Below, one piece after another: positions 16,892-37,300 of a stretch of 64,000 nt of DNA (position 1 is its first letter; each line of letters begins with the position of its first letter). The position numbers and the translations under genes are program-made. The stretch lies in NCBI GenBank assembly GCA_963693365.1, contig CAVNZM010000002.1, forward strand, positions 9,459,059-9,523,058, read 5' to 3'. This stretch comes from Amoebidium appalachense. Lineage: Eukaryota; Protista; Ichthyosporea. Under the pieces are notes generated by a model that saw only the letters and a program-made list of their open reading frames with translations, did not search any database and was not told the origin of the DNA.

Positions 16892-19800
16892 TCAAGCTGC
16901 CTCGGACTTGCCATTCCCACTAAACAGCTCAAACGTTGATGCAGACAGGCCACTCGCCGTCGCAGCGGCCGGCAAGTCTAAGGAACTGGTAGATGTCATG
17001 GCCGCGGGAGGCACCAAGTCACCAGTGGCACCGGCACCCTGGCTGTAGGCAAGGCCCGCGTGCATGTTTGCCAGGCGCATGTTTGCCTCGGTGGCCTTTG
17101 CCAGTTTGGCCGACATGGCCGCCAGCTCCTCCTGCATCTTCTTGTAGGCCGTAGAGTCCACGCCGCTCCTGGTTTCGGTCTTCTCCGTGCCGCTTGTGCT
17201 ATCACCGCTTGAGTTTCTGTTGTTCATGTCACGTGACCGGGAGACTTTGCGGTTGTTGCTGGATGGGTCGCCCGAGGAGCCGGAGAAGCTGCTCAGATGG
17301 ACCAGCTCGATCACGTGCAGCAGTTTGGGCAGAAAGATGATGCACTCTAGCAGCAGAACAGATGCGCTGGAATACAAAGGAGGAATTGTTCAACGTTAGC
17401 ATCTGTCAATAACCGACAAACCTATAGGAAGCAGAAAGATCTATGACATAAATATTACAGAGTTGAAACGGGTGTATCAATAGCTAGAGAGCTCGCAGTG
17501 GTAAGTATACGTATATATACGGGGGAGGGTTAAGTACGTACCACCAAGTAGCGCCATATATGGTATCTCTGGTGATATGGGCGGTGACGAGGGCTTGAAC
17601 GGGAATCAGCACCAGCACCATCAGCACCATTTGGATTGACGCTGTGATGATCATCTTGGTCTGGATGGGAGGGGGGAGGGGGGCGGGGAAGGGGAAATGA
17701 GGTATTAGAGGGGGATCCGCAGGCCGCTCTAAGCAGTATTAAATGATACATATGCAGTATTACTTCGGTTTCATTGAGTCAGAGAATACCGATCACATAT
17801 TAAGCGCTGGAGGGAGAATGCTTGGCACTAACTAAACTCAGTTATGTAGCTTTTCCCTGCTAGTGCTGTAAATTATTTGAAATGACATTCTCAGTCATTG
17901 ATGAGGCCAGTGAAAGAGAATACTATTAAAGGTGTGGTTGGGGCCAAGCTCGACAGGTGCACTGGTGGACATGATATAGTATGGGCAATACCTCTTTGAA
18001 GTGTGTGGGCACGTGGCGGATGCGGAATGCGTAGATTGCGGCCATGATGACCAAAATGTTGACGTAGGCAATGCAGCAAAAGTAGATGGCAGAGTTGCCC
18101 GTGGTGGTGGCCGGCAGGGGGATGTTGTCGAGGAAGTGGGGCTGGCCGTTGTAGCGGTACACGGCCGACGTGGTGATGGTGGTGAGGGAGATGGGCGCCA
18201 GGAACGTGAACACCAGAAGCAGCCCAACCTGCGGCCCCACAAGCATCGCCCACGGTGCAAGCAGGTGCCGGTCCGTCATGCGGAAGCGCGCCGCCTTGCC
18301 ATTGAAAAAGATCTCTGGAAAGTGGTTGGGACAAACACAGCACTGAGGTGAGATAAACGTTCAATGAATGACTTGGGAGTGCTTGGACTTGTCTACCTGG
18401 TCCATGTGTGTGTGTGTGTGTGTGTGTGTGTGTGTGTGTGTGTGTGTGTGTGCACGCACGTGTGTGTGCGTGTGTGTGTGTGTGCATGTGTGTGTGTGTG
18501 TGACTGTGTGTGTGTGTGTGCTTTTCTGTGTTTGTACTCGGTGTATACGTGTTTTTTGTTTGTACTCATCCGTTAATGCAGAAGGAACACCAGGCGGATA
18601 GAAGTTGGGGAGGCTTTCTGGCGGGGTCCCGATGCGCGGCGAGCCAGGGGGGAAAGGAGATGGGGAGGGGGGAAGGGTAGCAGAGATGCGAGGAAGGGGG
18701 GAAGGGGGGGGGGGGGGGGGGGGGGGGGGGGAGGCGATTCAATGAGGCTTAACGTACTTGAAATTCTATAGAGCTTGACGGCAATCGAGGCAAAAATGAT
18801 GGTGTCGCCCAAAAACACCAGCCACGTCTGCGCTATCTCCCGGCTCGGGCTGGGCTCCCCGGGCAGCAGCACCACCCCAACAAGCACCATCAGGCCCCCA
18901 AGGAGCATCACTGCGATTGAACATGATTGAAAGGAGAGTTAGGCTTCTATACTGTATTGGGAACCTTTGAATTCTCCATGCATATGTTGGCAAATCAGGC
19001 ACTGTGCCAGTAATGACGAAGAGAACAGAGTGACGAGGTGCACGTGGGCACCGTGGCACGGTCGAAGGGAGAAAAAAAATTGGGAGTGGCTTTTACAGGA
19101 GCAATTATTGTAAAACACAGTTACATATGAGAAGAAGGTAATGACAATGTAGTAATATAAAACTTATGAGAAAGTGGCACTCACGTTGGCTGTAGAACAC
19201 GCTGGCGCTCTTGATGGCTTTGGCGTCGCGGTAGACAAACACGGCCACGGACATGGACACGACCAGCACAATGCCCACCCCCCCAACACTGTAGAGGATC
19301 TTGGCCAGCCCGGACTGGCCGCCAATGTGGTCACACGACACATAGAGCGTGTCGGGAAGCTTGAGTGGGTTCTTGCACTGGTGGTCCTTCTGCCACGAAA
19401 ACGTAATCGGCTTGAGATCCGTGGCCGGATTGCACGGGGCCGACATGTTGGCCACAATGTTGGCAGCCGTGCACTCAGGCAGCAGCTGCATGCCCACCAC
19501 CAGACAGGTCGTGCCCACGGCCGCCTGCGTGCTGCTGTTGCGCCGGATCATGTGCAGCATCGTGCGGAACGGGTTGGCCTGTGCACATGAGACAAGAATA
19601 CTCCATATAAGTGTGTGGTTTGGATGTGTACATGTGTGTGAATGATTTTGGGTTAGGCTAATGAACTTGTCCATGTATGAATGGTATGCGCGCGCATGTG
19701 TGCGCATGTGTGTGTGTGTGGGGGTGTGTGTGTGTGTGTGCCACGGTGTATGTGTGTGTGCGTGTGCGTGTGCGTGTGTGTGTGTGTGTGTGTGTGTGTG

Positions 19801-36000: not shown

Positions 36001-37300
36001 ATGAACATTTCCCACGTCCAATCACTGATCTCCATTGTACTTGATGGACCCCCGGGTGGAGTGCCCAAACCCAAAGCACTGAAAGTCGTCGTATTGAAGA
36101 GTAGCACTCTGTAGTTGGAGACAAAAGGACGTGCAAGCCATCCACCCCTTTCATTTCGGAAAGATTGCAAAAACCCCGTAGGAACATCAAAAGAAATATC
36201 TTTTCCGGTTGCAAAATCCACCTCCATCCACTTGGTGAGGTCTGACGCCATGCCCTTAGCCGTCAGCTCCTGCGTCATATCCTCGCGGACTGTTACCATA
36301 TCTGGATACTGGTCGCTGGGAATGTCTTTGCGGGTGAAGTTGGACAGCGGAAGGTTCCAGATCTCTCCGTAGAAGGGCCGTCCCTCATACTTTGCGCGGT
36401 GGCATGCGGTATGTTGCATGGCCCGGACCAACTGTAGCTGGGGTGGGTTAATCCCTGCACATGTGGCCGCAAAGTTAGAGCGTATGCATACCAGATGGGC
36501 TCCGAGACTGAGGAAGCTAGCTACATGTGGGTCAAGAAATATGAGTTTGCTCTGTAAAACCTATCATACTCGATACATAGCACTTCACTGATTATGACCT
36601 AATAGTATGTCACCTAACACGGTATTGTTAGGTCATTGAATCTCGACGTGACTTACACATTTTTTTTTACAATATTGTAAGCCACGTGACCCATATTTAC
36701 TTATGACTGCTTGCTAATTTGTTATGGCTGTGACAGCAGAGTATATTGTAGGTTGAGAAGTTGTAACTATGCTCAACTTAAATCGTAAAGTTACAAGTCG
36801 CAATTGCCACTTTGAATATTGGGAGCTCTCGAGCCTGTGGAAGGGTTTAGCAAGTATATATATTTACAAATATTTTCCACGGTGCCACGTGCCTTACCTT
36901 CGGCAATTAAACCTCTGTAATGATTCCACATGACAACTCTGTCTTGCGGTTCAATCTGCACCCCTTCAGCCTGGGGCATAATAATCTTAAAAACCGTAGC
37001 ATGCGGAGCATCGAACGTGTCGTTCAGAGGTTTTCCCCCGACCATGGGATTGCCCTGAGCGTCAAACGCAAAAACTTAGTTGCTCCCGAGTCAAAACCTT
37101 TTTTTCCCAAGGCAGCAGACATCCCCATGCTTTTCGCACAGGGATTTCTCGTGGTCAACTATCCCTGTCCCATTGTATCTGCTCCAAATGCTGGCAGCGC
37201 TACGGCGCTGACGGTGCCCACCTTTGTTTTTTGCCCTGCGGGCATCGGCCCACGCTGTGCAGATCGCTGCTGTGACGAGAAGGAGCTTGTAGAGCCCCAT
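30007..37300 (-). CDS. Class C-like GPCR with solute-binding-protein-like ectodomain, copy B (tandem paralog; four 1-nt indels, either assembly error or young pseudogene)
   Basis: Exons 37300-36898, 36454-35967, 35328-34854, 34243-34021 (GC donor), 33372-32980, 32082-31930, 31751-31429, 31060-30942, 30457-30007. Intron positions and phases match copy A and the proteins are highly similar. Frameshifts at ~37100 (+1), ~37077 (-1), ~35082 (-1) and ~33017 (-1). Confidence 0.82.

What the first reader, a model, noticed from the sequence alone, without database searches (positions are those of the whole stretch)
16892..37300. Class C GPCRs whose Venus flytrap is replaced by a bacterial-type sugar solute-binding domain
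Seen: signal peptide, ~550-aa ectodomain, Cys-rich linker, 7TM with class C motifs (KxYRI, P..FKETK, FLPK) and a coiled-coil-like tail. Knowledge: canonical class C receptors (mGluR, GABA-B, T1R) use a type I periplasmic-binding fold, whereas the exon-2 motifs here (PDMV..DLT..PF..N.RVL.FN..F..GL..PPP..W.W..F..A) resemble type II family-1 ABC sugar-binding proteins (MalE/UgpB-like). As I recall, similar fusions are reported from anaerobic gut fungi, so the architecture is rare rather than unprecedented. Inference: carbohydrate-sensing receptors, with the binding domain possibly of bacterial origin.
Basis: partly seen in the sequence, partly recalled or inferred. Interest (0 to 1): 0.8.

Follow-up and report, generated by a model that had tools for sequence, protein, structure and literature searches.

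The report
Sugar-binder GPCR with a rewired pocket
One intact gene and one frameshifted copy join a bacterial-type sugar-binding domain to a class C receptor body, a design already reported in fungi and a plant-parasitic protist; this copy, likely from a single-celled relative of animals, has replaced most of the family's conserved, predicted ligand-pocket residues, so its ligand is probably not the family's usual one.

Summary
The architecture is real. Nine GT-AG exons on the minus strand (24975-16892) give a 1023-aa frame. Its exons tile a profile of 14 foreign single-chain relatives in order (E 6.5e-144). The ectodomain is a type II, MalE/CUT1-like solute-binding domain and the body is 7tm_3. 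The second gene (37300-30007) is not a second receptor: four 1-nt indels, also seen in short-read contigs, stop it at codon 70. The fusion is in print (Krishnan 2012, Seppala 2016, Rolfe 2016), and this scan found it earlier on other DNA.

What this adds: (1) homologous fused ectodomains occur in ichthyosporeans, fungi, an amoebozoan and stramenopiles, and no close bacterial relative was found; (2) the family's pocket motifs match a beta-1,2-glucooligosaccharide binder, yet this gene keeps 4 of 18 such positions against 39 of 53 others (set chosen post hoc); (3) three RNA-like runs hold a spliced antisense transcript over its last two exons, and none showed a spliced receptor joint. Ligand and expression are untested.

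Verdict: new member of a known kind.

The parts
24558..24975 (-). Gene A exon 1 (aa 1-139): likely signal peptide, basic R-x-R-R site (possible propeptide cut), three-Cys stretch, N-terminal extension and first strand of the binding domain
   Evidence: signal peptide and cut site by inspection; no match to the family profile
23110..23588 (-). Gene A exon 2 (aa 140-299): SBP_bac_1 core; holds L176, R196-E-D-M199 and N253, where the family has W, G-T-T-Q and D
22256..22743 (-). Gene A exon 3 (aa 300-461): second lobe of the binding domain; S310-L-S312 and V447-G-T-S450 replace the family's W-D-E and F-L-G-G
20691..20913 (-). Gene A exon 4 (aa 462-536): C-terminal part of the binding domain; its joint with exon 5 lies inside a motif conserved in single-chain relatives
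19185..19578 (-). Gene A exon 5 (aa 537-667): last helices of the binding domain, five-Cys linker, TM1
18758..18910 (-). Gene A exon 6 (aa 668-718): TM2-TM3 with KLYRI; the Cys at the top of TM3 is absent
17992..18314 (-). Gene A exon 7 (aa 719-826): TM4, ECL2 (no Cys), TM5, start of FKETK
17542..17660 (-). Gene A exon 8 (aa 827-865): TM6
16892..17366 (-). Gene A exon 9 (aa 866-1023 and stop): TM7 with FLPK, Ser-rich tail, heptad stretch at about 941-968
30007..37300 (-). Gene B, frameshifted paralogue; exons 37300-36898, 36454-35967, 35328-34854, 34243-34021 (GC donor), 33372-32980, 32082-31930, 31751-31429, 31060-30942, 30457-30007; single-base indels near 37100, 37075, 35080 and 33015; first stop at codon 70
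15717..17941 (+). Spliced antisense transcript: upstream exon ending at 15746, GT-AG intron 15747-16944, downstream exon from 16945 through gene A exon 9, intron 8 and exon 8 to about 17940; longest ATG frame in the part seen is 57 aa; true 5' and 3' ends unknown
   Evidence: strand inferred from the GT..AG ends
22950..23012 (+). 63-nt inverted copy of an exon 2 piece inside intron 2 of gene A

Best explanation
Gene A encodes a 1023-residue protein that joins a type II (MalE/CUT1-like) solute-binding domain through a five-cysteine linker to a class C seven-helix body, and it likely works as a cell-surface receptor for a small soluble nutrient cue, probably a carbohydrate or carbohydrate derivative other than the family's usual ligand. 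Shown: gene structure, domain identity, membership of a family of single-chain fusions, the replaced motifs, the broken state of gene B. Inferred: the two lobes would close on the ligand; the disulfide-tied linker would pass the movement to the helix bundle; the intact TM3/TM6/TM7 motifs would engage a heterotrimeric G protein; the tail heptads would help dimerise, as in GABA-B (recalled). The fusion was most likely inherited from an old eukaryotic family, not taken recently from bacteria, and the host is most likely an ichthyosporean. A and B arose by tandem duplication, both stayed under purifying selection for a long time, and B was disabled recently. An overlapping antisense RNA may hold A down in the sampled cultures.
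For: Domain identity. The AlphaFold model of the closest full-length relative (Creolimax P0010) matches type II oligosaccharide binders over residues 54-515 (5ysf: Z 31.7, rmsd 3.0, 367 aligned) and mGlu3 over 561-848 (Z 30.3, rmsd 2.8, 265 aligned). The window's own exon 2 model gives type II binders or MBP fusions in the 50 rows shown, at modest Z of 5.9-6.9. One gene. Family: 14 of 36 representative hits carry 7tm_3 on the same chain. Named members come from Ichthyosporea, fungi, Amoebozoa and Stramenopiles. A groups with Creolimax and Sphaeroforma in the ectodomain tree (96/95 with 28 rows; 100/99 with the 11 rows that have a species name or are A) and with Creolimax in the 7TM tree (SH-aLRT 95). 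A and Creolimax alone of 19 rows lack the TM3 and ECL2 cysteines. Selection: dN/dS of A against B is 0.22 overall and 0.17 in the ectodomain. Scaffold kept, cleft motifs changed: 39 of 53 against 4 of 18. The changed motifs are the same in A and B but for one residue, and the exon 2 ones are changed in like manner in P0001 and P0002.
Against: No spliced receptor joint was seen in three RNA-like runs laid on exons 5-9; only shallow unspliced pieces lay on exons 5 and 7 (contigs cannot show absence or level). The full-length fold is that of a 29%-identical relative, not of A. The pocket assignment rests on a profile alignment to Lin1841 and on paper passages, not on coordinates, and the 18 columns were picked after seeing A. 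Two family members (P0032, 8 of 18; P0020, 11 of 18) are also eroded. A is a long branch (1.99). The aromatic residues of the family's W and WDEE motifs, which would suit sugar stacking, are gone in A. Congruence of the two domains across the family is weak (Mantel rho 0.31, p 0.04) and deep branches are unresolved, so a single origin of the fusion is not shown. G-protein coupling was not tested.
Confidence: 0.55

Rival explanations
1. Gene A is a ligand-blind partner subunit. Its cleft has lost the binding residues, and it pairs with a canonical-pocket paralogue elsewhere in the genome and supplies trafficking or G-protein coupling, as GABA-B2 does for GABA-B1 (recalled).
For: The family's near-invariant cleft residues are all changed, including D253 (30 of 30 in the family rows). 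The scaffold and 7TM motifs are conserved, the tail carries heptads, and the family profile's best solved 7TM match is GABA-B2.
Against: The replacement residues are polar or charged and are shared by A and B across a synonymous distance of 0.6-1.4, although 15 of 16 identical is not clearly above the background identity. No canonical-pocket paralogue is in the window, and no genome was held to look for one.
Confidence: 0.2
2. Gene A still senses the family's ancestral oligosaccharide (likely a beta-glucoside); the motif changes are tolerated or compensated.
For: The fold is that of oligosaccharide binders. Bacterial CUT1 proteins bind sugars with very different loop residues (alignments). A GH35 glycosidase gene lies next door.
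Against: Most of the family rows keep 15-18 of the 18 motif columns across four supergroup-level lineages, whereas A keeps 4. Gene neighbourhood in a eukaryote is weak evidence.
Confidence: 0.15
3. The locus is on its way out: B is already dead, and A is intact in sequence but silenced by the overlapping antisense transcription unit.
For: B is frameshifted. RNA-like contigs cover exons 8-9 of A only as part of a transcript spliced on the opposite strand, in three runs of two studies.
Against: A has no lesion in 1023 codons and dN/dS is 0.22. Receptors are often lowly expressed or stage-specific (general knowledge). Only 3 RNA-like runs were laid on A, as contigs.
Confidence: 0.1

Closest known systems
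SBP_bac_1 + 7tm_3 Glutamate-family receptors of Allomyces macrogynus (Krishnan et al. 2012, PMC3251606; three passages read)
   Same: Same Pfam pair on one chain (8 sequences reported); no NCD3G domain.
   Different: Fungal. No pocket analysis, structure or ligand in the passages read. I could not test whether those 8 sequences belong to the same sequence family as A.
Class C GPCRs with type II SBP domains of anaerobic gut fungi (Seppala et al. 2016, PMC5168858; eight passages read)
   Same: Type II sugar-binding-like ectodomain in place of ANF in about half of roughly 100 class C receptors; cysteines that do not match the nine-Cys domain; function putative.
   Different: A large expansion in Neocallimastigomycota. 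No gut-fungal sequence came up by name in my searches, so homology beyond the Pfam level is untested.
Plasmodiophora brassicae SBP_bac_1-7tm3 proteins (Rolfe et al. 2016, PMC4815078; three passages read)
   Same: Same fusion, confirmed there as single coding regions by transcriptome data.
   Different: Rhizarian; read as transporters and as probable horizontal transfer. Here the 7TM has class C motifs and the nearest relatives are eukaryotic.
Creolimax fragrantissima CFRG5103T1 (P0010) and Sphaeroforma arctica SARC_13124 (P0005)
   Same: Closest named relatives: 29% identity over 742 aligned residues for P0010; same clade in both domain trees; P0010 shares the loss of the TM3-ECL2 cysteines.
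   Different: They keep the family pocket (15 of 18 and 12 of 13 columns), A keeps 4 of 18. No published analysis of them turned up in my 10 searches.
Listeria innocua Lin1841 / LiSO-BP (PDB 5ysb, 5ysf), a beta-1,2-glucooligosaccharide binder
   Same: Best fold match of the family ectodomain (Z 31.7). The family's W, GTTQ and SDxR align with its PW, GTTW and AETR. Its 69-74 loop projects into the pocket (PMC13731917, passages); my numbering offset of 25 puts the aligned Trp at 71 and reproduces the paper's E45.
   Different: A stand-alone bacterial ABC component, 16-19% identical to the model. Other beta- and alpha-glucoside binders score within 2-3 Z units. A itself lacks the shared motifs. 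The primary paper (Abe 2018) was not held.
Animal class C receptors (GABA-B1/B2, mGlu, CaSR)
   Same: 7TM homology: GABA-B2 is the best solved match to the family profile (E 5.5e-47); KxYRI, F-x-E-x-K and xPK motifs are present.
   Different: Type I ANF flytrap absent; NCD3G absent; the TM3-ECL2 disulfide cysteines are absent in A.

Membership tests
Class C (Glutamate) GPCR | Seven-helix 7tm_3 domain | tested here: met
   Pfam 7tm_3 on exons 5-7; seven hydrophobic segments; relative's model matches mGlu3 at Z 30.3
Class C (Glutamate) GPCR | Basic pair in TM3, acidic residue before TM6, PK in TM7 (as listed in PMC3727952) | tested here: met
   KLYRI 713, FKETK 824, FLPK 877
Class C (Glutamate) GPCR | Cys pair at the top of TM3 and in ECL2 (usual, not strictly defining) | tested here: not met
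   Absent in A and Creolimax P0010, present in the other 17 of 19 rows
Class C (Glutamate) GPCR | G-protein coupling and dimer formation | not testable with these tools
   Needs a cell assay
Animal mGlu/CaSR/T1R/GABA-B subfamilies | Type I ANF Venus-flytrap ectodomain (with NCD3G in mGlu/CaSR/T1R) | tested here: not met
   The ectodomain is positively assigned to type II by Pfam, profile search and fold; five linker Cys, not nine
SBP_bac_1/8 + 7tm_3 fusion receptors | Type II family-1 solute-binding domain N-terminal to 7tm_3 in one reading frame | tested here: met
   Gene model; colinear single-domain match to a foreign profile over residues 124-935; exons tile it in order
SBP_bac_1/8 + 7tm_3 fusion receptors | One transcript spanning both domains | tested here: inconclusive
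   No contig joined receptor exons in X9, X10, X11 laid on exons 5-9
Canonical-pocket branch of the fusion family (defined here) | W / GTTQ / SDxR / WDEE / FLGGxG motifs | tested here: not met
   A keeps 4 of 18 columns; set chosen post hoc
CUT1 / MalE-like sugar-binding proteins | Type II two-lobed fold of about 400 residues | tested here: met
   Through the relative's model (361-375 aligned residues in the top rows, Z 28-32) and A's colinear alignment; A's own exon 2 model at Z <= 6.9
CUT1 / MalE-like sugar-binding proteins | Binds a carbohydrate | not testable with these tools
   Needs thermal shift or ITC
Second intact receptor (gene B) | Open frame from signal peptide to TM7 | tested here: not met
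   First stop at codon 70; longest frames 348, 347 and 248 aa; indels present in short-read contigs

The most novel reading that the evidence does not exclude
The scattered 'SBP_bac_1 + 7tm_3' reports are one ancient eukaryote-wide receptor family whose conserved cleft is of the beta-1,2-glucooligosaccharide-binder type, i.e. a lost-in-animals sensor for beta-glucan fragments that is also grafted onto 7TM-RGS and single-pass bodies. The window gene marks an ichthyosporean branch that rebuilt this cleft for a new ligand, or gave it up to become a GABA-B2-like partner, and is gated by a spliced antisense RNA.
Probability: 0.25. Interest if true: 0.65.

Novelty: new member of a known kind. Interest (0 to 1): 0.33.

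Why it matters
The fusion itself is old news, but none of the passages I read reports a tested ligand. The conserved motifs give a specific first guess for the family (beta-glucoside oligosaccharides), and the window gene with the Creolimax protein gives a natural pair, canonical against rewired, for one binding screen. It also shows that close relatives of animals likely carry class C receptors with a type II sensor, which bears on how the class C body swapped ectodomains before animals fixed the type I flytrap. For the scan: the second gene should be annotated as a pseudogene, and RNA coverage over the 3' end of gene A should not be counted as receptor expression.

Tried and rejected
No whole genome is held, so paralogues outside the window were not counted. 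A word-indexed search with exon 2 among longer proteins found none of 151 candidates. A search with the ectodomain alignment returned only 3 family pieces among 7998 candidates. A pattern scan of prokaryote genomes with P0048 gave 12 pattern matches and no relative; a scan of metagenome contigs with the exon 2 pair gave 320 pattern matches and no relative. These reach close relatives only and do not prove absence. Viral contigs were not scanned. Foldseek on the exon 2 model gave no match at E<=0.001; the best was 5iai at E 0.088. Exon 1 matched neither Pfam nor the family, so its fold is open. The homodimer prediction for the tail stretch 930-975 gave no verdict (score 0.03). Idea rejected: B's frameshifts are long-read errors. 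Idea rejected: deep RNA-like cover at 16945-17940 is receptor mRNA; it runs through intron 8 and is spliced on the other strand. X9 and X11 gave no cover on B exons 1-4 beyond repeats; a hole proves nothing. Gene conversion of the 3' halves (dS 0.12-0.29 against 0.59-1.43 in exons 1-4) was considered and left open, since GC3 is also higher there (0.67-0.86 against 0.47-0.71) and the introns do not align. The fungal rows do not form a clade in the named tree, but the AU test does not reject one (p 0.118). Literature: 10 searches; only PMC3251606 and PMC4815078 hold both Pfam names. No paper in the listings dealt with an ichthyosporean SBP-class C receptor or a tested ligand, but Fig. 3C and Supplementary file 12 of PMC12716839, which list ectodomains by taxon, could not be seen and may already record it.
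Full report
Gene models. The window is eukaryotic, with microsatellite-rich introns and 167 single-base runs of 15 or more. Gene A has nine exons on the minus strand, 24975-16892. Gene B, 37300-30007, has the same exons and phases, one GC donor, and 68-94% nucleotide identity per exon. No third copy is in the window.

Domains. Pfam on single exon frames gives SBP_bac_1 on exon 2 of both genes (E 5.3e-6 and 1.7e-7, above the gathering score) and 7tm_3 on exons 5-7; no ANF hit at E<=1 in the 15 frames scanned. 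Exon 3 alone resembles SBP_bac_1/8 clusters in the ESM Atlas (score 0.95). The exon 2 pair hits sugar- and glycerophosphate-binding proteins in the PDB (best 5iai, E 5.6e-5). I could not fold the spliced protein, so I folded its closest full-length relative, Creolimax P0010 (mean pLDDT 67.9, low mainly in the tail and two N-terminal loops). Residues 54-515 match type II oligosaccharide binders (5ysf: Z 31.7, rmsd 3.0, 367 aligned) and 561-848 match mGlu3 (Z 30.3, rmsd 2.8, 265 aligned). A model of exon 2 alone gives type II binders or MBP fusions in the 50 rows shown, at Z 5.9-6.9, which is weak by itself.

One gene or two. A profile of 14 foreign single-chain proteins aligns to A as one domain over residues 124-935 (E 6.5e-144). 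Exons 2-7 occupy profile positions 80-239, 242-392, 393-463, 468-595, 597-646 and 648-750, at 28-88 bits; the best of 200 shuffles scored 5.3. Exons 1, 8 and 9 do not score above the shuffles when taken alone. The exon 4-5 joint falls inside a motif conserved in the family. This makes a split gene very unlikely, but it is not cDNA proof.

Gene B is broken. It carries four single-base indels against A in short runs, near 37100, 37075, 35080 and 33015, and stops at codon 70. Contigs of DNA runs X1 and X2, from two studies, span the exon 1 and exon 3 sites with no gap. An X10 contig that matches B's exon 5 and intron 5 shows the deletion when laid on A. dN/dS between A and B is 0.22 over 987 codons, so B was long functional and died recently.

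RNA. Of 24 runs listed I laid X1, X2, X9, X11 on 33990-37400 and X2, X9, X10, X11 on 16800-19700. X9, X10 and X11 hold contigs from about 16945 to 17660 that pass through intron 8 unspliced; X10 and X11 hold a further piece to about 17930. Their loose ends match 15717-15746. The skipped part, 15747-16944, reads GT..AG on the plus strand, and the DNA run X2 crosses 16945 without a joint. So a plus-strand spliced transcript overlaps exons 8-9 of A in antisense. X11's joint lies 4 bases further on both sides (GC donor, or template switching at a short shared word). The longest ATG frame in the part seen is 57 aa. No contig joined receptor exons; X9 had two shallow unspliced pieces on exons 5 and 7. 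Contigs cannot rank expression, so A's expression is simply unshown.

Relatives. An HMMER search of 1.84 billion representatives with the exon 2 pair gave 36 hits. Of these 14 carry 7tm_3 on the same chain, one carries RGS, one an ephrin-receptor-like repeat, and one (P0018) is an unrelated repeat protein. I looked up 29 of the 36; 11 have a species name and all are eukaryotes: Creolimax, Sphaeroforma, Chattonella, Phaeothamnion, Dermamoeba, Physocladia, Rhizophlyctis, Paraphysoderma (three) and Endogone. Lineages of six were checked; the others are recalled as fungi. A family-profile search added Nowakowskiella; its only named bacterium scored E 6e-10 against E<=1.3e-112 for the other 14 of 15. 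Four JGI proteins named as ABC binding proteins (P0012, P0013, P0045, P0049) carry the family motifs; the three put in the tree group with 7tm_3-bearing P0015 and P0043 (100/99), so I read them as eukaryotic exon fragments, which I did not prove. A groups with Creolimax and Sphaeroforma in the ectodomain tree and with Creolimax in the 7TM tree; A and Creolimax alone of 19 rows lack the TM3 and ECL2 cysteines. The host is therefore most likely an ichthyosporean. The trees leave out short fragments (28, 19 and 11 rows of the 35 aligned), have one bacterial row at most, and are unresolved at depth; they show no donor and no order of events.

The pocket. In 30 family rows, 71 positions of residues 1-630 are at least 75% conserved; A keeps 43. 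The losses cluster at W176L, GTTQ 196-199 REDM, D253N (D in 30 of 30), WDE 310-312 SLS and FLGG 447-450 VGTS. With the neighbouring kept positions included, A keeps 4 of 18 motif columns and 39 of 53 others. The set was chosen after seeing A, so the Fisher p of 0.0002 is descriptive only. Most family rows keep 15-18 of 18; P0020, P0031 and P0032 keep 11, 12 and 8. The family's W, GTTQ and SDxR align with PW, GTTW and AETR of Lin1841, the same protein that tops the fold search. With an offset of 25, which reproduces the E45 named in PMC13731917, the Trp is residue 71, in the 69-74 loop said to project into the pocket. That the other motifs line the cleft is inferred from their place after strand 3 and at the hinges, by recalled analogy with maltose-binding protein; one passage of PMC3080849 places Glu111 at the hinge and names Tyr155 and Trp340 as sugar-stacking. 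B shares A's versions of these motifs but for one residue; P0001 and P0002 show like changes in the part they cover.

Mechanism. Best reading (0.55): A is a receptor whose lobes close on a soluble cue, likely a carbohydrate or derivative different from the family ligand, and signal through the Cys-tied linker to a G-protein-coupling class C body. Rivals: a ligand-blind partner subunit (0.2), the same sugar as the family (0.15), a silenced locus (0.1). The architecture itself I put above 0.9.

Literature, with what I saw. PMC3251606 (three passages): SBP_bac_1 in 8 Allomyces Glutamate receptors. PMC5168858 (eight passages): type II SBP in about half of the gut-fungal class C receptors. PMC4815078 (three passages): Plasmodiophora fusions, single transcripts, read as transporters. 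PMC3727952 (twelve passages): diatom class C receptors with ABC-sugar-like N-termini. PMC3971589 (six passages and the text of supplementary file 3 part 1): its 7tm_3 architecture list shows Bmp, OpuAC, PBP_like_2, TctC and Peripla_BP but not SBP_bac_1. PMC12716839 (passages and section 9): non-metazoan Glutamate receptors have diverse ectodomains; the figure and file listing them were not visible. PMC12842992 (passages): no mention of SBP. Abe 2018: nothing seen.

Verdict. New member of a known kind, interest 0.33.

Noticed in passing
window 15717-17941 (+): Spliced transcript antisense to the last two exons of gene A, in three RNA-like runs of two studies; its upstream exons and any coding frame further 5' were not traced.
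   Followed up: partly
window about 6100-11500 (-): Intron-rich GH35 (beta-galactosidase-like) gene next to gene A; exon frames hit Glyco_hydro_35 at E down to 4.6e-12 in profile order.
   Followed up: partly
window 22950-23012 (+): 63-nt inverted copy of part of exon 2 inside intron 2 of gene A; it could pair with exon 2 in the pre-mRNA.
   Followed up: no
gene A exons 1-4 against exons 5-9: Synonymous distance to gene B is 0.59-1.43 in the ectodomain exons but 0.12-0.29 in the 3' exons: gene conversion or codon bias, unresolved.
   Followed up: partly
window 34015-34020 (-): Intron 4 of gene B starts with a GC donor where gene A has GT.
   Followed up: no
proteins P0027, P0036, P0030: The same ectodomain with intact motifs sits on other bodies: a membrane region plus RGS (P0027, Pfam E 1.2e-7; P0036 is its sister in the tree, without a Pfam hit) and an ephrin-receptor-like Cys repeat protein (P0030).
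   Followed up: partly
gene A aa 36-40 and 61-69; same stretch in gene B: A basic R-x-R-R site after the signal peptide and a three-Cys stretch are present in both paralogues and have no match in the family profile; possible propeptide and small disulfide module.
   Followed up: no
window 38880-39500: Short blocks repeated in both orientations around 38100-39500, seen as repeated ORF translations.
   Followed up: no
window 28645-29046: Almost perfect (GTGC)100 array between the two genes.
   Followed up: no
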